A stretch of 53,846 bases of DNA, taken from sequence record PP180005, one strand, 5' to 3'. This DNA comes from Escherichia phage mEp554. Of this stretch, positions 3,896 to 51,169 are shown piece after piece. The position numbers were made by a program, and so were the translations under genes. The stretch's first letter is position 1; each line of letters opens with the position of its first letter. The notes below the pieces were generated by a model that searched no databases, was not told where the DNA came from, and was given only the letters and a program-made list of their open reading frames with translations.

Positions 3896-5311
3896 TTAAA
3901 AAGATGCGTTATTCTGATTGTTTCGTTGGTTAAAACGGCTTGTGCGATGATTCATTGACTGAATGCACGCTGCGGCTGCGCGCGCCTGGTCGCATGGCAA
4001 GATATTACCGTTGTCATCAAACCGCTGGTAAACAGTTCCAGACTTACCATGACGGTTTTTTGACACAATAATTTCCATATATTCGCGGGCAACAGACTGT
4101 TCATCGTAATATCCATCTCGGTAAACCATGATTATCCTGTCGGCATCTTGCTCAAGGTTGCCCGAATCACGAAGATCAGAATTGTTAGGTCGCTTGTTCG
4201 GTCGTTCCTCAACACGGCGGGACAATTGCGCCAGCGCCAACACTGGTACACGCAATTCTTTAGCCATCATCTTTAACGACCACGACAATTGCCCTACGGC
4301 GAGATCATGACGTTCGGCCTTAGCCAGCTTCATTAACCCGATATAGTCAATCATTACCATACCCAGGTTCGGGTGATCCTGCTTCATCCGTTCCGTTGTT
4401 GCGCGTATTTCCTCAACCGTTAACTGCGACGCGTCAACGATCCACACATCAAGATTAGCAAGTGCGCTCATACCCTGGCCGACATGCGCCCACCCCTCAT
4501 CATCAAGTTTTACAGGATTGCGCAGGCAGTCGGTTGATAAATTACCAGCGCCCGCGATAGCGCGCTCAGTCATCTGATCGAGTGACATTTCAAGCGTGAA
4601 GAACAAAACGCCAACCCGCTGATCCTTGCTGCCAGGGTAAGGTCGCTCAGCGGCAGCGCGGGCAATTGTCAGCGCCAACGCAGATTTACCAGACCCAGGG
4701 CGTCCGGCGAGAAGTACCAAATCAGTAGCGTTAATGCCGCCCAACATTTCGTCGAGTGGTTCTATACCTGTTTTGATGTTGTCAGAGTTGACACCGCATT
4801 CCATGCGCTTGCTTAAAACGTCAGTATATTCCTGTACCGCATCGCGCAACAGAACAGGAATGATCTTGTCTTTCGTTACCTTTAATTTTGAATACCGGGA
4901 ATCAAAATCTTTCATCGTCTCTTTGACGACCTCAAGCGTCCCAGTCTCCAGTTTGTAGCGCATATCGTCGATTAGTTCCAACATCTGCCGCCGCTGGTGC
5001 TCTTCACGTAGTAACTGTGCGTATCCCTTCAGGTTGGCAGCAGACGGGCACGAACGCGCCGTTTGCATTAGCGGTACGAAATTTTCATTACCAATCTCAT
5101 CACCGACCAGCAACGCATCTATGAGATTTCTGTTTCTGGCTTGTGCCCGGATAACTTCAAACGCACGTTTATAGAGCGGGATCGTGAACACTTCAGGATC
5201 AAGTGTGGCGAGAACATCTTGCGCGTTAGGAGTTAGGCCACCTAACAGCAGCCCGCCGATAACTGACGCCTCACGTTCCTGCCGTAGTGAGTTTATTTGC
5301 TCAGTTACCAT
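3896..5311 (-). CDS. Replicative DNA helicase, DnaB family
   Basis: 471 aa; Walker A GRPGSGKSALALTIA; DnaB-like N-terminal domain; GGAGG SD. Confidence 0.9.
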   Translation of the reverse strand: MVTEQINSLRQEREASVIGGLLLGGLTPNAQDVLATLDPEVFTIPLYKRAFEVIRAQARNRNLIDALLVGDEIGNENFVPLMQTARSCPSAANLKGYAQLLREEHQRRQMLELIDDMRYKLETGTLEVVKETMKDFDSRYSKLKVTKDKIIPVLLRDAVQEYTDVLSKRMECGVNSDNIKTGIEPLDEMLGGINATDLVLLAGRPGSGKSALALTIARAAAERPYPGSKDQRVGVLFFTLEMSLDQMTERAIAGAGNLSTDCLRNPVKLDDEGWAHVGQGMSALANLDVWIVDASQLTVEEIRATTERMKQDHPNLGMVMIDYIGLMKLAKAERHDLAVGQLSWSLKMMAKELRVPVLALAQLSRRVEERPNKRPNNSDLRDSGNLEQDADRIIMVYRDGYYDEQSVAREYMEIIVSKNRHGKSGTVYQRFDDNGNILPCDQARAAAACIQSMNHRTSRFNQRNNQNNASF

Positions 5312-8847: not shown

Positions 8848-9112
8848 GTTTCTTTCTCCTATGGTTAGAGTGAACGCGCTGGCGGGTATCAAATTAGCAT
8901 TAGATAGCAGTGACTGACCGCTGAACAGATCCCGCCGTTGCGTGATATTTGTTTTTCGCTTCGCAGCGACACCGGATTTTTAAAGAGCTTTTAAGGTATG
9001 TGCCTTTTGTGCTTTCCCTTATCTTTTTCCTTGCATCATTGCAAGTTCGGCTTTACCTTGTCTGTAAGTTTACAGAATGGCGTTAACAGATCAAGGATTG
9101 AAAATTACATTT

Positions 9113-9128
9113 TGTGACTTGCATCAAA
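9113..9128. promoter_or_regulatory. Palindrome TGTGACTTGCATCAAA in the divergent immunity intergenic region; candidate operator or CRP-like site
   Basis: Near-match to TGTGA-N6-TCACA; adjacent CATTTTGT motif; second TTGCATCATTGCAA palindrome at 9032-9045. Confidence 0.25.
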
Positions 9129-9153
9129 TTTTTTTAGGTTATAGGGTAGCGAC

Positions 9154-9801
9154 ATGAAAACAAAATGGTATGACTTAGCAAAACAACTCATGCGGGCGCA
9201 GGGTATGAGTCAGGATTCATTGGCAGATCTCATGGGGATCACAAAAGGCGGCTTGTCACACTGGCTTAACGGTCGCCGCGAGCCAAATCTTGAAGACATT
9301 GCGCGGATCATGCGGGCGCTTGGGCGTCGGCAGTTCACTGTCACACATGATGGAATGGTCATTGATGATTCTGTTTCTAACACGTTGCCGGGAGCGCCTC
9401 CTCGTGATTTAGGCAGTTACCCGGTTGTTGACTGGAAGGATGTAGCAAACAATATGGAAGACATAAGCAGATCAACATTGCCACACGTTACGACTAGCGT
9501 TATTTGTTCAGATGATAGTTACTGGCTGGTTGCTAAAGGCGAATCAATGAACGCGCCGCAAGGATTGAGTATACCAGCGGGGACGATGATACTTGTCGAT
9601 CCGCACGCGCCAGCTATTGACGGAAAACTGGTTATAGCCCAACTGGAGGAGGGGCAGATACCGACGTTTAAACAGTTGATTATTGATGGAGGCAGAAAAC
9701 TTTTGCGTTCACTGAATCCGTTGTATCCGCCGATCCCTATGAATCCAGAATCTAAAATCATAGGCGTGGTAGTGGATGCGAAGATCGTAAACCTGCCATA
9801 A
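9154..9801 (+). CDS. CI-like repressor, HTH_XRE plus LexA-like S24 peptidase domain
   Basis: N-terminal GMSQDSLADLMGITKGGLSHWLNGRR HTH; C-terminal GESMNAP (Ser) and TFKQL (Lys) S24 motifs; divergent from leftward operon. Confidence 0.85.
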   Translation: MKTKWYDLAKQLMRAQGMSQDSLADLMGITKGGLSHWLNGRREPNLEDIARIMRALGRRQFTVTHDGMVIDDSVSNTLPGAPPRDLGSYPVVDWKDVANNMEDISRSTLPHVTTSVICSDDSYWLVAKGESMNAPQGLSIPAGTMILVDPHAPAIDGKLVIAQLEEGQIPTFKQLIIDGGRKLLRSLNPLYPPIPMNPESKIIGVVVDAKIVNLP

Positions 9802-9832: not shown

Positions 9833-9925
9833 GCCATAAAAACACCAAAACGTAAACAGAAAACGTTATTTATTATTTAAATATCAATGACATATAAAAT
9901 ATTTTAAAAAAGTATACAAAATGGA

Positions 9926-10088: not shown

Positions 10089-10379
10089 ATGACAGTTACA
10101 ATCATGTATGGCAAATGTGATAGCAAAATAAACGCCAGGGAACGCAGAAGAATAAAAAGAGAAAACGAAAGAAAATCATCACCTGCAATTAATAAAACGG
10201 ACAATGTGGATAAAGCCATTCGCTTTGCAAACGATGAAAGATGCAAACCCAATGGCATTAAAGAACGTCGCAAAGGAGCAGTAAAATGGTATACGGAAAA
10301 TGAAAGCGGCAACTACTACCACGCAACGCAACCACGCCAACTAGGGGAGAAACCACTGGATAAAGTCCGTTACCATTAA
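10089..10379 (+). CDS. Hypothetical basic protein
   Basis: AGGAG SD; lysine/arginine-rich. Confidence 0.55.
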   Translation: MTVTIMYGKCDSKINARERRRIKRENERKSSPAINKTDNVDKAIRFANDERCKPNGIKERRKGAVKWYTENESGNYYHATQPRQLGEKPLDKVRYH

Positions 10380-14291: not shown

Positions 14292-14307
14292 TGTGATTGC
14301 GATCACA
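14292..14307. promoter_or_regulatory. Perfect CRP-consensus palindrome TGTGATTGCGATCACA
   Basis: TGTGA-N6-TCACA; intergenic; followed by TACAAAATGTATA motif (minus orientation) and a TGTGATCGCGA half-site. Confidence 0.4.
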
Positions 14308-14387
14308 TAGCTATACATTTTGTACTGTGATCGCGAATCCGTTTTGTAAACTGAAAGCAAAAGGTTTACGGTACGGAGGGAAATAAG

Positions 14388-17874: not shown

Positions 17875-17896
17875 AATTTACAAAATGGCGTCATTG

Positions 17897-17912
17897 CGTG
17901 ATGCGGATCACA
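17897..17912. promoter_or_regulatory. CRP-like palindrome CGTGATGCGGATCACA
   Basis: GTGA-N6-TCACA; centred about 60 bp upstream of predicted TSS of promoter CTTGTT-N17-TATACT (17929-17957). Confidence 0.35.
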
Positions 17913-18033
17913 TAATGGCGCTTTTTGTCTTGTTTGCATGTATCCATTTTGTATACTTCAAGCAAACAAAATGCTCTTTAAAAATCCGGCAGCGCTGAAA
18001 TGCGTAGAAATCACCTGAAAAGGAGAGAGCATT

Positions 18034-22571: not shown

Positions 22572-22587
22572 TGTGATCTTTATCACA
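22572..22587. promoter_or_regulatory. Perfect CRP-consensus palindrome TGTGATCTTTATCACA
   Basis: TGTGA-N6-TCACA; centre about 60 bp upstream of predicted TSS of the 22605-22633 promoter. Confidence 0.4.
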
Positions 22588-22604
22588 ATGTATACAAAAT
22601 GGCA

Positions 22605-22633
22605 TTGTTTCGGCAGTGCCGTTTTGTTATATA
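22605..22633 (+). promoter_or_regulatory. Sigma70-like internal promoter
   Basis: TTGTTT, 17-nt spacer, TATATA; TATACAAAATGG motif directly upstream. Confidence 0.4.
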
Positions 22634-22666
22634 TAAGTCACTGAAAGACGAATGGAAGGTAAGAAG

Positions 22667-22792
22667 ATGAACGCTAACGCTAAATATCCGGCATGGGTCT
22701 TTGAACTATACGCCCGCTACTTTGAATTGCTGGCACCAGGTGAAGAAGCATTAAGCATTGACGAATACGCTGAGTGTTTAGGGTTCAAATGA
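22667..22792 (+). CDS. Hypothetical small protein (41 aa)
   Basis: GGAAGG SD. Confidence 0.35.
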   Translation: MNANAKYPAWVFELYARYFELLAPGEEALSIDEYAECLGFK

Positions 22793-36844: not shown

Positions 36845-36869
36845 GGGGCCGCTTGGCCCCTTTATTTTT
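36845..36869 (+). terminator. Rho-independent terminator after major tail gene
   Basis: GGGGCC-GCTT-GGCCCC hairpin plus TTTATTTTT. Confidence 0.65.
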
Positions 36870-36881
36870 AAGGTGACAACT

Positions 36882-37562
36882 ATGATTCACGTTCGAACAG
36901 GACAGTTTGCGGTTGTGGTTGATGGCAGACGTTACGAATTTAATCCCTGCTTTGCTGCAATGGCTAAGATCGGCAGTGACAGGGAACTGGTCGAATATTT
37001 CGCAACGGTTCACGGCGGCAGATACCCACGACGTTTGCCAATGGATACAGACCTCCGCAATCGCATTCTGGCGCGTTGTTATGGTGGACTGGTGCAAACG
37101 TCCATCCACATATTGAAATGTTGCTCAGAATGCGAAATAGGCCAGTTATTGGGCGAATGTAGCTTTACTCCTTCGGGTAAGTTGAGACTGAAACCTGGAT
37201 TGATGCCCACCAGCGACGTTATCACACTTGCGCAGCACTGCATGTTTCACGGTTTAATTGGTGACGGTCCAGAAGAAGACACGGGCGAAAACCAGGATGG
37301 CGAGTACAAGCCCACATTCGACATCCTTGAGTATGTTTATTCTGCCGTTGCTCACCTGGGATTGTCTGAGTCTGAAGCGTGGGGCATGACAATGACCGGA
37401 TACAGGGCCGCAGTACGCGCTAAAACGCCGCCAGACGAAAGAAACGAGAAACGTAAGCCAAACGTTCAGATAAATAAACGTGATTATGATGAGCAAATGG
37501 AGGCCGCTAAGAGGGTGCTGGAATTGATGAAAAAACGCGAGCAAGAAAAAGCCCGGAATTAA
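36882..37562 (+). CDS. Tail assembly chaperone (G/GT-like)
   Basis: Position between major tail and tape measure; start at MIHVRTGQ; no obvious slippery site seen. Confidence 0.5.
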   Translation: MIHVRTGQFAVVVDGRRYEFNPCFAAMAKIGSDRELVEYFATVHGGRYPRRLPMDTDLRNRILARCYGGLVQTSIHILKCCSECEIGQLLGECSFTPSGKLRLKPGLMPTSDVITLAQHCMFHGLIGDGPEEDTGENQDGEYKPTFDILEYVYSAVAHLGLSESEAWGMTMTGYRAAVRAKTPPDERNEKRKPNVQINKRDYDEQMEAAKRVLELMKKREQEKARN

Positions 37563-37578
37563 CCGGGCCTTTATCTTT
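37551..37578. terminator. Bidirectional rho-independent terminator
   Basis: GCCCGG-AATTAA-CCGGGC hairpin flanked by A5 upstream and CTTTATCTTT downstream; ends both the chaperone gene (+) and the convergent minus-strand moron. Confidence 0.65.
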
Positions 37579-37891
37579 ACTTGTATGCTGCGAATCGGCA
37601 TCTTGCTTCATCCAGGTCATGAACATCGTACACGTTATCGTAAATGTAAGTTGCTACCTGTGCTTTCTGTACGTCAGTTGCGTTCGGGAACTCCATGCTT
37701 ACGAAAGTCACTGCATCAACGTAGTGTTTGAACATCTTTTTGTTAACGCACAGTGCGTAAATCAATACGGCAGGCCAGCAAATCAGCGCGCCAAAGAATG
37801 CCATGAGCATATTCAGATGTTTTTTCTGAGCTACAACCATAGTTGCGACGAATCCGATGAAGCAAATTACCAGTTCCATGATGCACCCCAT
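37577..37891 (-). CDS. Membrane protein (two TM segments), opposite-strand moron
   Basis: MELVICFIGFVATMVVAQ...LMAFFGALICWPAVLIYALCV then soluble C-terminal domain. Confidence 0.55.
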   Translation of the reverse strand: MGCIMELVICFIGFVATMVVAQKKHLNMLMAFFGALICWPAVLIYALCVNKKMFKHYVDAVTFVSMEFPNATDVQKAQVATYIYDNVYDVHDLDEARCRFAAYK

Positions 37892-37998
37892 TAATTACGT
37901 TTATCTTCGGTTGTCATTGCCAGCACTAGCACAGCCATCACATTAAATGCTAACCATGCTGTAATATATACATCTATAACCGTTTTGATTGTGTCCAT
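37891..37998 (-). CDS. Single-helix hydrophobic mini-protein (35 aa), moron
   Basis: MDTIKTVIDVYITAWLAFNVMAVLVLAMTTEDKRN; stop overlaps next start. Confidence 0.4.
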   Translation of the reverse strand: MDTIKTVIDVYITAWLAFNVMAVLVLAMTTEDKRN

Positions 37999-38011
37999 TT
38001 ACCCGCCACGC

Positions 38012-38098
38012 TTATTTCTTGTTTTTAAGTGCTTTCAACATTTTTTCGATGAAATCGGCATAACGCTCATGCTCGTTTGGTCGGTAGTAGTTTTTCAT
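38012..38098 (-). CDS. Small basic protein (28 aa), first gene of minus-strand moron
   Basis: MKNYYRPNEHERYADFIEKMLKALKNKK; GAGGA SD. Confidence 0.3.
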   Translation of the reverse strand: MKNYYRPNEHERYADFIEKMLKALKNKK

Positions 38099-38176
38099 TT
38101 TCTTATCCTCTTTTGCTTCCTCCGGTTAATCCGGCCTTCTAAATCCCTTTACTCTATCCCTTTCCTTTAGCCTCTT

Positions 38177-38218
38177 TATACAAAATGTATTCGTTGAAGT
38201 GAAGCCATTTTGTATAAA
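38177..38218. promoter_or_regulatory. Divergent promoter pair built on back-to-back TATACAAAATG motifs
   Basis: Plus: TCGTTG-N16-TATAAA (38191-38218); minus: TTCACT-N17-TATAAA; each -10 lies inside the partner motif. Confidence 0.4.
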
Positions 38219-38255
38219 ATAGAGATCAGGATCACACTTTTTACGAGGTTAAATC

Positions 38256-40604
38256 ATGGCTACCAGTTTAGGTACAATTTATTACGAAGTTGATGCAAAA
38301 ACTGGTCAACTTCTAGTCGCTCAGAGACAGGCGGACCAGGCTTTTGACAGTATCGAGCGTGGCGCAAAACGCGCTGACCGCCAGGTGAACACGCTTAAGA
38401 CTTCAATCAAAGCACTATCCAGGGTCATTCATCTGTTACTTGCTGCGGAGGCTGTGCGCCAGTTTATTGACATGGCGGAGCAAGCAAAAATGCTTCGCGT
38501 AAAAATCAAATTGCTTACAGGTGAAGCGGAGGCAACGGAACGCGTTTTCAACAGACTGAAAGAAATATCAAAAGAAACAGGGCAAAGCCTCAAGGATACT
38601 GGCGACCTGTGGCAAGGGCTTGCTATATCGCTAAAAAACACATCCGCTACTGAAGGCCAGGTCCTCAACCTGGTTAGCACGCTGCAAAAACTCGGCAACC
38701 TGGGCGGCGTGTCTGCGGAACAACTATCAAACTCCATGCGCCAGTTCCGCCAGGCTATTGATGCTGGCGTGTTGCAGGCTGAAGAATTTAACTCAATCCG
38801 TGACAACACCCCAACAATCATACAGGAAATGGCACGCCAAATGGGGTTGTCTATGGGGCAGTTCCGCGCTGAAATGCTGGACGGCAAGATCACGGCTGAA
38901 AGGATGCTCAACGCGATCCAGGCCGCCACGCAGGAAACGAACGAGAAGTTCGCACAGTTGCCGCGCACATCCGGCATGGCCTTCAACGAGCTTAAAGTTG
39001 AGGTTATGGGACTTGTCGAACAGCTAGACGATCTTTTCGGCATATCAGATGGCGTTGTGTCGGCAATAGACTTAATCACTGGTGGCGTTGAGGGATTAGG
39101 TAAAGGCGCAAAATTCGCCGCAACATGTTTCAATACACTAAAAACGGCTGGCAGCGAATTTATCGACATGTTTGATGATGTTGCTGTTAAGGCTGGCGAG
39201 GTGGCGGAAGAGATTATCAGGATGGTAACGCCAATCAAGGCGCTAATGGATGGCTACAAATGGATGAAGGAAATCATTGACAAGCGCAAGGAAGAGCTAA
39301 ATAGCAACAACGAGAAGAAATTTGGCCCTACAGTTGGTAAGGTCATGACGTTTGCAAACGACATTAAAAACGCAACTGCCGCCTATGATGAGTTCATGGA
39401 GAAACAGGGTGAGGCTGACGATGGTAAGATCACGGGATTCGATCAGCCAGTTGGTAAACCGAAAAAAGGTAAAAAGGGCAAAAAAGACAAGAAATCTGAA
39501 GCTGATCGGCTTGGTGATGAAGGTATAAAAGTCTCTGACCAGTACAACAAAGACGCCGCCGCTATGCGTAAAGCACTGGAGAACGGCAAGGCCATTGACG
39601 CCGCATTTGCCCAGGGAAAAATAACCCTCCTTGAGTACAAGGCCGCGCAGAAAGGTATAGGCAAGGAACTGAAGGACGAATTGGCGCAAATCCCTGTTGA
39701 TGAGCTACGCGACAAATGGGACCACATAGTTAGCCCAATGGACCAGCTTAAGGGCGAAATTGACCCAATCAAACAGGCGCAAAATGAATGGGCCGTAAGA
39801 AAGCAAATGCTATTGGACCTGGGCGCTACAGAGGCGCAACAGAGACAGGCGCAATTGGAATACGAACAACAGATCCGGGATCTGAAGTGGGAGCAATGGC
39901 AGGCGCAAAGCGAAACAAACGGACTGATCGGCGCTTGCGTCAGCGGCCTGAAAGGTGGCATGGGCAATGCCCTTACAGGACTGTTAAACGGTACTCAATC
40001 ATTAAGCGAGGTTTTTGCCAACCTGGGAAGTAGCATACTTAACACCGTTGGCAACAAACTATCAGAAATTGCCGCTAACTGGATAGCAGATCAGTTAATG
40101 ATGGAAACACAAAGCAAGGCCACGCAAGCAAGTACCACGGCAGGCGCGGTAGCGGCACAAGGCCAGATTGCAGCGGCGGCGGCCCCGGCAGCGGCGGCTA
40201 CGGCTGCGTCAACTGGTGGTAGCTGGGCGGCGGCTGGTGCTGCGGCGCTTTCTGCGATCATGTCGCTGGCAACGTCAATCTTTGGTGGCGGGCGTTATAA
40301 TGGTGGTTCTGTTAATGGTGGTAGCCTGTATCGAGTAGGGGAACACGGAATACCTGAGCTATTCCAGACGAGCAACGGGCGTCAGTATATGATTCCTGGC
40401 GAAAATGGTAGGGTAATTCCTGGCCGCGATCTCTTCAATGGTGGCGGCATCAATATGCCTGTGCAAATCACAGTTCAGACCACAAACGGATTTAGCGACG
40501 AAGATAGCCGCAGACTTGAGCAGACGATGGAGCGCGTAGCAATGAAAATGATGGCAAGGGAATCGCAACGACCGGGAGGAATGTTGCAACCGCGCCGCAA
40601 ATAA
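38256..40604 (+). CDS. Tail tape measure protein
   Basis: 782 aa, alpha-helical, Ala/Gly-rich C-terminal segment; position. Confidence 0.85.
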   Translation: MATSLGTIYYEVDAKTGQLLVAQRQADQAFDSIERGAKRADRQVNTLKTSIKALSRVIHLLLAAEAVRQFIDMAEQAKMLRVKIKLLTGEAEATERVFNRLKEISKETGQSLKDTGDLWQGLAISLKNTSATEGQVLNLVSTLQKLGNLGGVSAEQLSNSMRQFRQAIDAGVLQAEEFNSIRDNTPTIIQEMARQMGLSMGQFRAEMLDGKITAERMLNAIQAATQETNEKFAQLPRTSGMAFNELKVEVMGLVEQLDDLFGISDGVVSAIDLITGGVEGLGKGAKFAATCFNTLKTAGSEFIDMFDDVAVKAGEVAEEIIRMVTPIKALMDGYKWMKEIIDKRKEELNSNNEKKFGPTVGKVMTFANDIKNATAAYDEFMEKQGEADDGKITGFDQPVGKPKKGKKGKKDKKSEADRLGDEGIKVSDQYNKDAAAMRKALENGKAIDAAFAQGKITLLEYKAAQKGIGKELKDELAQIPVDELRDKWDHIVSPMDQLKGEIDPIKQAQNEWAVRKQMLLDLGATEAQQRQAQLEYEQQIRDLKWEQWQAQSETNGLIGACVSGLKGGMGNALTGLLNGTQSLSEVFANLGSSILNTVGNKLSEIAANWIADQLMMETQSKATQASTTAGAVAAQGQIAAAAAPAAAATAASTGGSWAAAGAAALSAIMSLATSIFGGGRYNGGSVNGGSLYRVGEHGIPELFQTSNGRQYMIPGENGRVIPGRDLFNGGGINMPVQITVQTTNGFSDEDSRRLEQTMERVAMKMMARESQRPGGMLQPRRK

Positions 40605-40610
40605 ACAAAA

Positions 40611-40638
40611 CCCCGGTACAATGCCGGGGTTATCTTTT
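40611..40638 (+). terminator. Rho-independent terminator after tape measure gene
   Basis: CCCCGG-TACAATG-CCGGGG hairpin plus TTATCTTTT. Confidence 0.6.
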
Positions 40639-40913
40639 AGTTATTCTCAAATCTTGTATATCCTCTCTCAATTTTCCCTCCGTGTACACTTCTGGCAAAT
40701 ACCGCGTCAGTATACCTGAAAAATGGACATGTATATGTATCCCCTTTGCTATCCATATATTTTAGCACCCATGCCATACGTTTTACATTGCTTTTATTTG
40801 CCGGGTTTTTCATTTTATTTTCCTCCGCAAATCACAACCTGCCGTTTCTTGCTATGTAGCTGCGAGCAAACATCACCTGCCAGATGTTCCAGATCTCCCG
40901 CCACGTAAATTCA

Positions 40914-41063
40914 TCATCTTCCATATCTCACACCATCGCGCTTGTATGGTTCGCCATCAGCAAACGGGATTAACTCATCGTTTGCCACCATTCGATTGAA
41001 CCAGTCTTTCAGAGCAACCAGGGAGAACCGGATCCCGTAACTGTGCAATTCGCGCCACCTCAT
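40914..41063 (-). CDS. Hypothetical small protein (49 aa), third gene of minus-strand cassette
   Basis: ATGA overlap with upstream stop. Confidence 0.3.
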   Translation of the reverse strand: MRWRELHSYGIRFSLVALKDWFNRMVANDELIPFADGEPYKRDGVRYGR

Positions 41064-41314
41064 TTATGTGCCCCTTTCACTCCACAATGTCGGTTGTATT
41101 CAAGGTGGTCAATAATTAGCCAAACCTTCAAATCTTCACTGAACAGCCGCCAATCAGGGTTTATGTCCATCTTGTAACCGTAACCATCGCGTAACTTTTT
41201 GGGGTAAACCTCTTTTTTAAGAAAAGCATCAAGTAATTGTTTTCCTTTCTTGATGATCCGTTCTTGGGCGTTTTTCTGTGCTTTCAGGTTTTTGCCAATC
41301 ATTACCAATTTCAT
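41060..41314 (-). CDS. RelE/HigB-superfamily toxin-like protein (tentative)
   Basis: GYGYKMDINPDWRLFSEDLKVWLIIDH resembles the conserved core of RelE/ParE/HigB-fold toxins; lysine-rich N-terminus. Confidence 0.4.
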   Translation of the reverse strand: MKLVMIGKNLKAQKNAQERIIKKGKQLLDAFLKKEVYPKKLRDGYGYKMDINPDWRLFSEDLKVWLIIDHLEYNRHCGVKGAHK

Positions 41315-41334
41315 AACTCACCCCACGCAATCAA

Positions 41335-41490
41335 TCAGTTGACCACTTTCAGGAAGAAATCACGGTATTCATCTTCTTTTGCATTCATCATGAATTGACC
41401 GTATTTGAACGCATCATCAAAACCCTTCACAATCGCAACTTCCACCTGTTCGAATGCTTTGTTTAGCATTACCACTACATAGCGTTCCAT
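41335..41490 (-). CDS. Hypothetical small protein (51 aa), first gene of cassette (antitoxin candidate)
   Basis: AAGGGGG SD before MERYVVVML. Confidence 0.35.
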   Translation of the reverse strand: MERYVVVMLNKAFEQVEVAIVKGFDDAFKYGQFMMNAKEDEYRDFFLKVVN

Positions 41491-41659
41491 ATTGGCCCCC
41501 TTTGTTGGTACTGCTTTCTCTTCTTGCTTTCTGTATACATCTTGTTGCGTCCTGTGTGAAGCCATTTCGTAAACTGGGTATAATTCTTGTGACGAAGTTC
41601 TCATTTTTCGCGTAGAAGCGCGTAAAGATGTATGCAATATGTAACTTATAGGGGGAATC

Positions 41660-50719: not shown

Positions 50720-50744
50720 CCCCGCTTCGCGCGGGGTTTTCTTT
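50720..50744. terminator. Bidirectional rho-independent terminator, copy 2 of duplicated module
   Basis: CCCCGC-TTCGC-GCGGGG hairpin plus T-run; follows J and the convergent lipoprotein gene. Confidence 0.65.
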
Positions 50745-50992
50745 TAGTAGTTGGCTACACAGTTCGACGGGCTACCGATGCGGCGCATATTGTGATCGAG
50801 TTCATGACACCATTGCCCAGTATACGGCAGTTTTTCAGTGTCATAGACAAGATGACCACTACCATCATAAACAATATCATGTGGAATTACTCCGCTATTT
50901 GGCAGGTTGTGCAATGCGGCCTCTTTGTCAACAGCACAGCCAGTAAGAGCAACAGCCGCAGCGAACAAAACCACTTTGAACACGTTTTTCAT
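50744..50992 (-). CDS. Small lipoprotein (82 aa), opposite-strand moron between J and side tail fibre
   Basis: MKNVFKVVLFAAAVALTGC lipoprotein signal with LTGC lipobox. Confidence 0.6.
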   Translation of the reverse strand: MKNVFKVVLFAAAVALTGCAVDKEAALHNLPNSGVIPHDIVYDGSGHLVYDTEKLPYTGQWCHELDHNMRRIGSPSNCVANY

Positions 50993-51169
50993 TTTTGAAT
51001 CCTCATTCTTGTTGGTTCATCCGGTTTATCCGGTGGCTTAAATATCCGACAAAACCACATTTCGTATATTGATATAAATCAACAAATACATTTTGTGTAA
51101 GCAGAAAATGCAACAAAGATCACAAAATGGTAGAATTATTCCGTTAATTAACATAATGGAGTCATTGCA

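What the first reader, a model, noticed from the sequence alone, without database searches (positions are those of the whole stretch)
37577..38218. Three minus-strand small genes between tail chaperone and tape measure, with a divergent promoter
Between the chaperone and tape measure genes there are three minus-strand ORFs: a 28-aa basic peptide (38012-38098), a 35-aa single-helix peptide (37891-37998) and a 104-aa two-TM membrane protein (37577-37891), ended by a bidirectional terminator (37551-37578). Upstream, two TATACAAAATG motifs face each other (38177-38187 and 38205-38216) so that each strand reads motif, -35, spacer, TATAAA. A membrane-protein moron inside the tail operon is a classic position for superinfection-exclusion genes.
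Basis: partly seen in the sequence, partly recalled or inferred. Interest (0 to 1): 0.55.

Follow-up and report, generated by a model that had tools for sequence, protein, structure and literature searches.

The report
Repressor-wired accessory gene cassette in tail operon
Three small backward-facing genes between a phage's tail chaperone and tape-measure genes are real; they form a swappable accessory cassette whose control region looks like a copy of the phage repressor's own operator/promoter switch, so these membrane proteins are probably tied to the lysis-lysogeny circuit.

Summary

The window is an mEp-immI (mEp021-group) coliphage. In about 60 relatives this junction holds a cassette with conserved ends: the terminator, the 40-bp palindrome, a leader and a 27-29-aa microprotein gene. 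The cargo between them is shuffled and consists almost entirely of envelope proteins. Here it is a 35-aa plus 100-aa inner-membrane pair that always co-occur, an orphan family.

The main new result concerns the palindrome. It is not obviously two sigma-70 promoters. Its arms are outer halves of two 15-bp dyads (TATACA-N3-TGTATT) spaced 25 bp apart. In three clades of homologous CI-like repressors these dyads occupy classic operator positions. The module aligns without gaps to those phages' early promoters and to this phage's own early promoter. Only the minus-strand -35 is conserved.

The proven exclusion lipoprotein gene (Lpp) and a third minus-strand array in this genome share parts of the design.

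Superinfection exclusion remains an inference by analogy. Expression timing (lysogen versus early or induced) is open, with repression by Rep favoured.

The parts
37546..37572 (.). Shared (bidirectional) intrinsic terminator. The stem is GCCCGG/CCGGGC (37551-37556 and 37563-37568). The stop codon of the DUF6246 'chaperone' gene lies in the loop. It ends the minus-strand cassette (good T-run) and, more weakly, the plus-strand gene.
   Evidence: The stem is invariant and the loop variable in 6 aligned phages.
37577..37879 (-). F4: 100-aa protein with two predicted N-terminal transmembrane helices (about residues 1-19 and 22-47) and a helical C-terminal domain. The window also has an in-frame upstream ATG at 37891 (104 aa) that is absent in relatives.
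   Evidence: dN/dS 0.14; AlphaFold2 pLDDT 72.5, all-helical. Orphan family: 8 clusters in 5.8e9 proteins and 3 representatives in 1.84e9.
37891..37998 (-). F3: 35-aa single-pass membrane peptide. It is present in every cassette that carries F4.
   Evidence: dN/dS 0.19; L029 re-checked. It is duplicated in tandem in L020 and L021.
38012..38098 (-). F0: 28-aa soluble, helical microprotein MKNYYRPNEHERYADFIEKMLKALKNKK. It is the first gene of the transcript in most cassettes (two relatives carry a short F7 ORF ahead of it), it is conserved across cargo types, and it stands alone in two relatives.
   Evidence: third-position bias 5/5/21; dN/dS ~0.04; 47 of 62 cassettes; F0-only in L022 and L039; confined to this phage group; annotated only in mEp515.
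38099..38168 (-). Predicted purine-rich 5' leader with a small hairpin CCGGATTAACCGG (38134->38122) and the Shine-Dalgarno AGAGGA. It is homologous to the leader of the Lpp exclusion-lipoprotein gene.
   Evidence: The motif CCGGAT[AT]AACCGG occurs only twice in the window, both times 36-41 nt before a minus-strand moron ATG.
38175..38203 (-). Candidate promoter of the cassette: -35 TTCACT (38203->38198), 17-nt spacer, -10 TATAAA (38180->38175). The predicted start is near 38168.
   Evidence: weight-matrix score 8.8; gapless alignment with early promoters; -35 keeps TT in 44/44; -10 is TATAAA in 39/44.
38177..38191 (.). Operator-like dyad TATACAAAATGTATT. It overlaps the -10 of the cassette promoter and is the best match in the whole window to the operator matrix derived from L032 (20.8 bits).
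38202..38216 (.). Second dyad AAGCCATTTTGTATA (outer half perfect, inner half degenerate; 11.7 bits), 25 bp from the first. It overlaps the first two bases of the -35 of the cassette promoter.

Best explanation
This is an exchangeable accessory-gene ('moron') cassette inserted between the DUF6246 tail-chaperone-position gene and the tape-measure (TMP) gene of an mEp-immI coliphage. It is transcribed against the late operon.

Transcription is inferred to start near 38168, from a weak promoter (TTCACT-17 nt-TATAAA). That promoter is embedded in two 15-bp dyads (TATACA-N3-TGTATT type) spaced 25 bp apart. One dyad overlaps the -35 and the other overlaps the -10. The transcript crosses a about 70-nt leader, encodes the conserved 28-aa microprotein F0, then the 35-aa (F3) and 100-aa (F4) inner-membrane proteins. 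It stops at the hairpin shared with the DUF6246 gene.

Shown by comparison:
- All three ORFs are under purifying selection.
- The ends of the cassette are conserved while the cargo is swapped among envelope proteins.
- The dyads belong to the operator family of this phage's CI-like repressor clade.
- The module is collinear with repressed early promoters.

Inferred:
- The immunity repressor Rep, and/or a Cro-like partner, binds the palindrome and controls the cassette.
- The most likely logic is repression in the established lysogen and expression on infection or induction.
- F3 and F4 form an inner-membrane complex that interferes with entry of incoming phage DNA at the tape-measure/inner-membrane step. 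This would be superinfection exclusion, as with HK97 gp15, and timed as with T5 Llp.
For: Real genes.

Cassette and hot-spot:
- Searches compare 62 cassettes. F0 is present in 47.
- Cargo families are F1 secreted, F2 VasI/TagO-like lipoprotein (PF11319, 2e-16), F5 weakly BamE-like lipoprotein, and F3+F4.
- Distant relatives have DUF6246 abutting TMP.
- GC dips across the cassette.

Operator link:
- L032 shares only the repressor gene (46% identity, recognition helix conserved) and the 40-bp palindrome with the window.
- In the 51% and 45% repressor clades, dyads sit at -82, -49 and -23 from the repressor start. A pair 25 bp apart lies over TTGCAT-17-TATATT, ahead of an N-like gene where this was examined (L032, L110).
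- Those loci share nothing else with the window.
- A matrix built from L032 alone finds its best window hit at 38177 (20.8 bits) and finds the window's early promoter site at 9913 (16.2 bits). The 9913 site is conserved in 41 of 43 mEp-type loci.
- Arms vary at 2/22 positions against 16/18 for the spacer. The one recurrent arm variant (CGTTTTGTATA) is a natural operator variant. The -35 TT is kept 44/44 on the moron strand only.

Paralogous modules: one before a third minus-strand array (41573->41532) and a second copy in L022 driving the only distant F4 homologue.

Functional analogy:
- The position matches HK97 gene 15.
- The proven exclusion lipoprotein Lpp of this phage group (PMC11893012) is encoded at 50744-50992. 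It shares the orientation, shared terminator, leader hairpin, MKN start and upstream dyads.
- T5 Llp is made shortly after infection (bioRxiv 10.64898/2026.03.26.714494).
Against: - There are no transcript or binding data.
- The core promoter is weak: -7 is A, and the matrix score is about the genome median.
- The inner half-sites of the dyads are degenerate in most relatives.
- The window's own repressor-upstream region has only weak dyads (best 7.4 bits, at -50). The operator set of the mEp repressor may therefore differ from that of the sister clades.
- Rep021 operators have not been defined experimentally.
- A dyad centred near -41.5 is also the geometry of class II activation, so the sign of regulation is uncertain.
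- Repression in the lysogen would remove the classical benefit of a moron.
- The exclusion function rests on position, predicted membrane location and analogy only. F3 and F4 match no Pfam, PHROG or PADLOC model and no fold.
- The phage already has an exclusion protein (Lpp).
Confidence: 0.5

Rival explanations
1. Classical moron. Two back-to-back constitutive sigma-70 promoters read outward from the palindrome. The minus-strand genes are expressed from the prophage and give superinfection exclusion in the lysogen. The palindrome is only the two promoters' shared sequence.
For: Own terminator, low GC, variable cargo and the HK97 gene 15 position. The plus-strand candidate TTGAAG-15-TAAAAT scores 10.4, about the 90th percentile.
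Against: - The minus-strand candidate scores at the genome median, and the plus-strand one needs a 15-nt spacer.
- The plus-strand -35 is not conserved.
- The invariance lies in the outer arms, not in the hexamers.
- The same dyads sit at operator positions next to homologous repressor genes in otherwise unrelated phages.
Confidence: 0.2
2. Same operator pair but opposite sign. Rep bound at the dyad centred near -41.5 activates the intrinsically weak cassette promoter, as lambda CI at OR2 activates PRM. The cassette would then be expressed because the cell is lysogenic.
For: Weak core promoters lacking -7T recur in the cassette module (TATAAA), the post-TMP array module (TATACA) and the 22591 module (TATATA), and no good sigma-70 candidate is found upstream of Lpp. 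The dyad overlaps the -35 by 2 bp, which is class II geometry. An exclusion lipoprotein with upstream dyads would be most useful in lysogens.
Against: The second dyad overlaps the -10, and in this window it is the stronger site (20.8 against 11.7 bits). The same two-dyad layout covers strong early promoters that must be repressed in the sister clades and in L032.
Confidence: 0.15
3. The F3/F4 membrane pair is not an entry blocker. It could be another envelope module: a toxin/antidote or abortive-infection pair that depolarises the membrane, a modulator of lysis timing, or a host-envelope conversion factor. This is independent of how the cassette is regulated.
For: - A 35-aa hydrophobic peptide resembles small membrane toxins in size.
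- The pair strictly co-occurs.
- Alternative cargoes (VasI/TagO-like and BamE-like lipoproteins) are not obviously anti-phage.
- The phage already has Lpp.
Against: There is no PADLOC, Pfam or PHROG match to any toxin, holin or Abi family. The distant homologue P0009 occurs without a 35-aa partner. The position and the shared expression platform with a proven exclusion gene favour exclusion.
Confidence: 0.15
4. The palindrome acts on the plus-strand late transcript or on elongating polymerase, not as the cassette's promoter. It could be an RNA hairpin about 40 nt before the TMP start that stabilises or processes the mRNA. Or it could be a repressor roadblock of the mycobacteriophage 'stoperator' type that keeps tail genes silent in lysogens.
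For: The plus-strand RNA can fold a 13-bp stem (z = -3.2). Dyad-like sites are dispersed in intergenic regions of the genome (9913, 14312, 17941, 51085), which recalls stoperators (PMC9283540).
Against: Both arm variants seen in relatives break the pairing without compensation. The minus-strand genes need a promoter, and this is the only conserved intergenic sequence upstream of them. Stoperators are asymmetric 13-bp sites bound by a monomer, not dyads.
Confidence: 0.07

Closest known systems
HK97 gene 15 moron (gp15, YebO-like inner-membrane superinfection-exclusion protein)
   Same: It is inserted at the same junction, between the tail assembly chaperone gene and the tape-measure gene. It encodes a small inner-membrane protein and is an independent transcription unit (PMC3594210).
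   Different: - No sequence relationship: no Pfam hit of any kind, and F4 is an orphan family.
- Three genes rather than one, led by a conserved microprotein.
- The cargo is combinatorial across relatives.
- The control region looks like immunity operators.
Lambda-type OL/PL and OR/PR operator-promoter modules (CI/Cro)
   Same: Dyad-symmetric sites about 2.4 helical turns apart, one overlapping the -35 and one the -10. The same sites flank a homologous CI-like (HTH + S24) repressor gene in three clades.
   Different: This copy lies about 28 kb from the immunity region, inside the tail operon. It has a weakened core promoter and drives accessory envelope genes antisense to late transcription. 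Binding is not demonstrated.
mEp-immI Lpp exclusion lipoproteins (Lpp021, Lpp010; PMC11893012)
   Same: Same phage group and, in this window, the same design. It is a minus-strand gene inside the tail cluster with a terminator shared with the upstream gene. It also has a homologous leader with a CCGGAT-W-AACCGG hairpin, an MKN start and upstream dyads.
   Different: Lpp is a single outer-membrane-directed lipoprotein with a demonstrated exclusion phenotype. Its dyads are 31 bp apart. The finding's proteins are inner-membrane, untested and unrelated in sequence.
Phage T5 Llp
   Same: A small envelope protein encoded among tail and receptor-binding genes but made shortly after infection, to exclude further infection.
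   Different: T5 is virulent, and Llp is a lipoprotein that blocks FhuA. No homology, and no repressor control.
Cluster A mycobacteriophage stoperators
   Same: Repressor-binding sites distributed across the genome, including structural gene regions (PMC9283540).
   Different: Stoperators are asymmetric, numerous, orientation-dependent, and act on elongation. Here there are few dyad sites, and they are arranged as promoter-overlapping pairs.

Membership tests
Moron (Hendrix/Juhala sense) | Extra DNA between genes that are adjacent in related phages | tested here: met
   Distant DUF6246 relatives L196, L198, L199 and L201 have the DUF6246 gene directly abutting TMP. L022 and L039 have only F0.
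Moron (Hendrix/Juhala sense) | Own terminator | tested here: met
   Hairpin at 37551-37568 followed by TTTTTCTTG on the minus strand. It is conserved in relatives.
Moron (Hendrix/Juhala sense) | Own promoter | tested here: inconclusive
   TTCACT-17-TATAAA has a conserved position and -35 TT (44/44), but its weight-matrix score (8.8) is about the genome median. There is no transcript mapping.
Moron (Hendrix/Juhala sense) | Base composition differs from the neighbouring genes | tested here: met
   GC is 0.36-0.39 at 37800-38300, against 0.47-0.52 in the flanks.
Moron (Hendrix/Juhala sense) | Expressed from the repressed prophage | not testable with these tools
   The operator-like dyads over the -35 and -10 argue that this may not hold.
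HK97 gp15 / YebO-type exclusion proteins | Sequence homology to gp15/YebO | tested here: not met
   No Pfam family reaches significance for F4, F3 or F0 at E<=1. An exhaustive profile search finds only the protein's own family plus P0009.
HK97 gp15 / YebO-type exclusion proteins | Small inner-membrane protein encoded between the tail chaperone and the TMP gene | tested here: met
   Hydropathy segments 1-19 and 22-47 in F4, and 7-30 in F3. The position is confirmed.
HK97 gp15 / YebO-type exclusion proteins | Blocks genome injection of superinfecting phage | not testable with these tools
   This needs plating and DNA-entry assays.
CI/Cro-type operator-promoter module | Dyad-symmetric sites of about 15-17 bp | tested here: met
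   38177-38191 is TATACA-AAA-TGTATT. 38202-38216 has a perfect outer half.
CI/Cro-type operator-promoter module | Two or three sites at fixed spacing overlapping the -35 and -10 of an early promoter | tested here: met
   The 25-bp spacing is identical to the early-promoter pairs of L032, L110 and L116, and the alignment is gapless.
CI/Cro-type operator-promoter module | Sites co-occur with the cognate repressor gene across otherwise unrelated phages | tested here: met
   Three repressor clades (>90%, 51% and 45% identity) all carry the dyads next to the repressor gene. Only the repressor is shared with the window.
CI/Cro-type operator-promoter module | Strong sites in the phage's own repressor/cro divergent region | tested here: not met
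   The window region 8893-9153 has only a 7.4-bit site (9104, at -50) where sister clades have three sites of 14-19 bits.
CI/Cro-type operator-promoter module | Bound by the repressor, with an effect on transcription | not testable with these tools
   Rep021 operators are undefined in the literature.
Mycobacteriophage-type stoperators | Asymmetric 13-bp sites, many per genome, oriented with transcription | tested here: not met
   The sites here are dyads. About 7 sites reach >=14 bits in 54 kb.
Known anti-phage defence systems (PADLOC) | Match to a defence-system protein model | tested here: not met
   No hit at E<=1 for any of the five cassette proteins tested.

The most novel reading that the evidence does not exclude
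mEp-immI phages carry a dispersed immunity regulon. Copies of the repressor's operator/early-promoter module have been seeded through the late region. There are at least three such sites in this genome: 38175-38216 and 41532-41573, which carry the full module, and 51054-51099, which has dyads but no clear promoter. A related module lies at 22591 and a duplicate occurs in L022. Each copy drives a minus-strand accessory operon for envelope proteins, including the proven exclusion lipoprotein. Exclusion and envelope-remodelling genes would then be switched directly by the lysis-lysogeny repressor rather than being constitutive morons. The invariant 28-aa microprotein F0 would be a conserved effector of unknown target.
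Probability: 0.35. Interest if true: 0.72.

Novelty: new variant of a known kind. Interest (0 to 1): 0.55.

Why it matters
Morons are usually pictured as autonomous, constitutively expressed add-ons. Here a moron slot at the classic HK97 position appears to be plugged into the phage's immunity circuit through a copied operator/promoter module. The same platform seems to be reused for several accessory operons, including a known exclusion gene.

If this is confirmed, four things follow:
- It would define the unknown operators of the Rep021 repressor family.
- It would show how accessory cargo is swapped behind a fixed regulatory and leader 'socket'.
- It would give a testable case of exclusion genes timed by the repressor.
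- It would add two orphan membrane proteins and a strongly conserved, mostly unannotated 28-aa microprotein to the list of candidate phage-host interface factors in a phage group common in the human gut.

Tried and rejected
- Family searches: Pfam, PHROGs and PADLOC scans of all cassette proteins gave no significant hit for F0, F3, F4 or F1. The DUF6246 and PHROG 791 hits concern only the neighbouring 'chaperone' gene.
- Sequence searches for F4: the large-database search and an exhaustive profile search found only its own narrow family plus one distant homologue.
tblastn against phage genomes found it only in the mEp group.
- Promoters: the built-in consensus promoter scan found nothing at the palindrome.
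- RNA families: the Rfam scan gave only a sub-threshold hit on the terminator.
- Other genera: the GTDB species-representative scan with DUF6246 returned only a degraded Kluyvera fragment. The test 'different immunity type, different palindrome' could not be run, because distant tail-module relatives lack the cassette.
- Host factors: I considered and dropped, from memory of consensus sequences only, host-factor sites (IHF, LexA, OmpR, CpxR, TyrR) and alternative sigma factors (sigma-E, -S, -54, -28) for the 11-mer. None fitted.
- Literature: the mEp021 literature held here does not describe this cassette, its transcripts or the Rep operators.
Full report
**Context.** The window is a complete genome of about 54 kb from the mEp-immI (mEp021) group of temperate coliphages. 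Across this region it is 92% identical to mEp044, and it also matches mEp010, mEp021, MagusPhagus and mEp515. The finding lies between a DUF6246 gene (PF19759, E = 3e-55; PHROG 791, function unknown) and the tape-measure (TMP) gene. DUF6246 occupies the tail-chaperone position after the tail tube gene, so 'chaperone' is a positional call.

**Observation.** All stated features are present.
- ORFs lie at 37577-37891, 37891-37998 and 38012-38098 on the minus strand.
- A G+C-rich hairpin at 37551-37568 has T-runs on both sides.
- TATACAAAATG occurs at 38177-38187 (+) and 38206-38216 (-).

The ORFs are not chance.
- Across 17 relatives the 28-aa ORF varies at codon positions 1/2/3 in the ratio 5/5/21, with dN/dS about 0.04.
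- The 35-aa and 100-aa ORFs give dN/dS of 0.19 and 0.14.

Three corrections apply.
- Relatives start the large ORF at the window's M5 (37879), giving 100 aa.
- The small peptide is only mildly basic.
- The plus-strand 'promoter' has a non-functional spacing if TATAAA is taken as the -10.

**What the locus is.** I compared the window with 18 annotated phage and prophage loci, 4 metagenomic loci and 44 IMG/VR contigs. The ends of the cassette are fixed.
- On the left is the terminator.
- On the right are the 27-29-aa gene (F0), a about 70-nt leader, the 40-bp palindrome and the TMP start.

Between these ends the cargo is combinatorial.
- F1 is a secreted protein family of 116-165 aa that includes mEp021 gp63.
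- F2 is a VasI/TagO-like lipoprotein (PF11319, 2e-16).
- F5 is a weakly BamE-like lipoprotein.
- F6 is a 106-aa protein.
- F3+F4 is the pair found in this window.

F0 is present in 47 of 62 complete cassettes and stands alone in L022 and L039. F3 accompanies F4 in every cassette that has F4. Distant DUF6246 relatives have that gene abutting TMP, and one (L195) has an unrelated plus-strand insert at the same junction. GC falls to 0.36-0.39 over the cassette. Only 28 of 5,426 complete E. coli genomes carry the conserved module at megablast sensitivity, and only 3 carry this cargo. This is therefore a moron hot-spot at the same junction as HK97 gene 15 (PMC3594210).

**The proteins.**
- P0009 also sits on the opposite strand of a related tail operon, one gap upstream between the tail tube and DUF6246 genes, without a 35-aa partner.
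- F3 is a single-pass peptide.
- F0 is soluble, helical and confined to this phage group. It is annotated only in mEp515. In other records nothing, or an antisense ORF, is annotated there.
- None of the proteins matches Pfam, PHROG or PADLOC models.

**The palindrome.**
- By a simple sigma-70 weight matrix (frequencies from memory, so approximate), the minus-strand candidate TTCACT-17-TATAAA scores 8.8. The median best score of 300-nt windows of this genome is 7.9.
- The plus-strand candidate TTGAAG-15-TAAAAT scores 10.4, and the phage's early promoter scores 16.4.
- The exact 11-mer also occurs at 9913, 17945 and 22591.
- At 9913 it abuts the -35 of the strong promoter between the repressor gene (9154-9801) and the N-like gene (10089-10379). 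That site is conserved in mEp021 and in 41 of 43 mEp-type immunity loci.

**The link to the repressor.** An exact-palindrome scan of IMG/VR returned 43 tail-junction loci and one unrelated contig, L032.
- In L032 the palindrome extends to two 15-bp dyads (TATACAAAATGTATT and AATACATTTTGTATA) with a third dyad upstream. They overlie TTGCAT-17-TATATT ahead of a gene with an N-like arginine-rich motif.
- L032 shares with the window only the CI-like repressor gene (46% identity, E = 2e-63, recognition helix nearly identical) and the palindrome itself.
- Loci fetched through repressor homology fall into three clades, at over 90%, 51% and 45% identity.
- In the two non-mEp clades, dyads sit at -82, -49 and -23 from the repressor start. 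A pair spaced exactly 25 bp apart lies downstream over the early promoter.
- Those loci share nothing else with the window.
- A matrix built from L032's six sites alone gives its best score in the whole window at 38177 (20.8 bits).
- The cassette module aligns without gaps to the early-promoter modules of L032, L110 and L116 and to the window's own early promoter: dyad, -35 sharing its first TT with the dyad, 17 nt, then -10 inside the second dyad.

**Independent support from conservation.** In an unbiased set selected through DUF6246, the palindrome is exact in 39 loci and has one mismatch in 5.
- The recurrent variant, CGTTTTGTATA, is a natural operator variant in the sister clades.
- Neither this variant nor the other one seen (TATACAAATTG) is compensated on the opposite arm. 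That argues against selection for an RNA hairpin.
- The arms vary at 2 of 22 positions and the spacer at 16 of 18.
- The -35 TT is kept in 44 of 44 modules on the cassette strand but in only 23 of 44 on the TMP strand.

**Paralogous modules in the same genome.**
- A near-copy, TTTACGAAATGGC-TTCACA-17-TATACA (41573->41532), precedes a third minus-strand array of small genes (41490->40637). That array ends at a terminator shared with TMP.
- The type-C Lpp exclusion lipoprotein of this phage group lies at 50744-50992 on the minus strand, between J and the tail-fibre gene. Exclusion was shown by expressing it from a plasmid (PMC11893012). It has a shared terminator, dyads at 51054 and 51085 (17.8 bits), and a leader homologous to the cassette's. 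That leader includes the hairpin CCGGAT[AT]AACCGG, which occurs only in these two places in the window, and an MKN start.
- In L022 a second exact palindrome sits before DUF6246 and drives P0009.

**Interpretation.**
- Shown: the three ORFs are coding. The locus is an exchangeable cassette with conserved regulatory ends. The palindrome belongs to the operator family that travels with this repressor clade and is collinear with repressed early promoters.
- Inferred: Rep and/or a Cro-like protein binds it. Because dyads cover both the -35 edge and the -10, repression in the lysogen, with expression on infection or induction, is the more likely logic.
- A PRM-like activation model is not excluded. 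It is favoured by the recurrently weak core promoters and by the usefulness of exclusion genes in lysogens.
- The main weakness is that the window's own repressor-upstream region has only weak dyads, and Rep021 operators are experimentally undefined.
- The exclusion function of F3/F4 rests on position (HK97 gp15), predicted inner-membrane location, the envelope nature of almost every alternative cargo, and the platform shared with Lpp. T5 Llp shows that exclusion proteins encoded among tail genes can be early products.

**Verdict.** The 'divergent promoter' is better read as one weak minus-strand promoter inside a pair of immunity-type operators, and the exclusion function remains a hypothesis. 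This is a new variant of a known kind of element, of moderate to good interest. It yields directly testable predictions about repressor-wired accessory operons and about a conserved, mostly unannotated microprotein.

Noticed in passing
window 50744-50992 (-), with regulatory region 50993-51110: This 82-aa lipoprotein (MKNVFKVVLFAAAVALTGC...) is the type-C Lpp exclusion protein of PMC11893012. It has H38 and I40, as reported for mEp554, so the window is probably mEp554 or a near-identical phage. It has a terminator shared with J, the leader hairpin CCGGATAAACCGG, and dyads at 51054 and 51085 spaced 31 bp apart.
   Followed up: partly
window 40610-41573: A third minus-strand array lies between TMP and the next tail gene. 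It holds ORFs of 51 aa (41490->41335), 84 aa, 49 aa and 58 aa (40813->40637). It is driven by a paralogue of the cassette promoter module (TTTACGAAATGGC-TTCACA-17-TATACA, 41573->41532) and ends at a hairpin shared with TMP (40610-40640).
   Followed up: partly
window 22573-22792: Another copy of the module: TATACAAAATG-gca-TTGTTT-17-TATATA (22591-22633). It is preceded by a perfect CRP-like palindrome TGTGATCTTTATCACA and followed by a purine-rich leader and a about 41-aa ORF starting at 22667. This site is absent from the first 30 kb of mEp021.
   Followed up: no
window 14292-14326 and 17877-17955: Strong dyad-like sites lie in intergenic regions away from obvious promoters. 14312 (16.1 bits) sits next to a CRP-like TGTGATTGCGATCACA. 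17941 (16.5 bits) pairs with a motif variant at 17877, and together they bracket the predicted terminator downstream of the cytosine methyltransferase gene (the nutR2 region). Both are conserved in mEp021 (16539, 20140). They may be repressor roadblock sites.
   Followed up: no
window 8893-9153: The divergent region upstream of the repressor gene lacks the three strong dyads seen in the sister repressor clades. Only ATTACATTTTGTGAC at -50 (7.4 bits) is positionally homologous. Other palindromes are present (CTTGCATCATTGCAAG, CTGTAAGTTTACAG), and their role is unknown.
   Followed up: partly
window 36845-36860; locus L022 1620-2130: An intrinsic terminator sits between the tail tube and DUF6246 genes. 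In L022 this same gap holds a second palindrome-driven moron (P0009). The late operon is thus punctuated by terminators after the tube, DUF6246, TMP and J genes, which implies reliance on Q-type antitermination.
   Followed up: no
L020 3235-3461 and L021 407-633: The 35-aa gene is present as two identical tandem copies in two independent metagenomic contigs. There it is preceded by an extra gene of about 60 aa (MNVYEAIRNIRNIE...) between F0 and F3.
   Followed up: no
cargo genes in L002-L017: Otherwise unrelated secreted and lipoprotein cargoes share very similar signal-peptide starts (MKRL[AI]K...). These, together with the conserved F0 junction and the terminator, could provide the homology arms for cargo swapping by recombination.
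   Followed up: no
L014 and L015 about 5037-5268; L016 and L017 about 4990-5180: In several prophages the gap immediately after TMP carries other minus-strand accessory genes, for example a ParE-family toxin-like protein. This shows that the post-TMP junction is a second variable slot.
   Followed up: no
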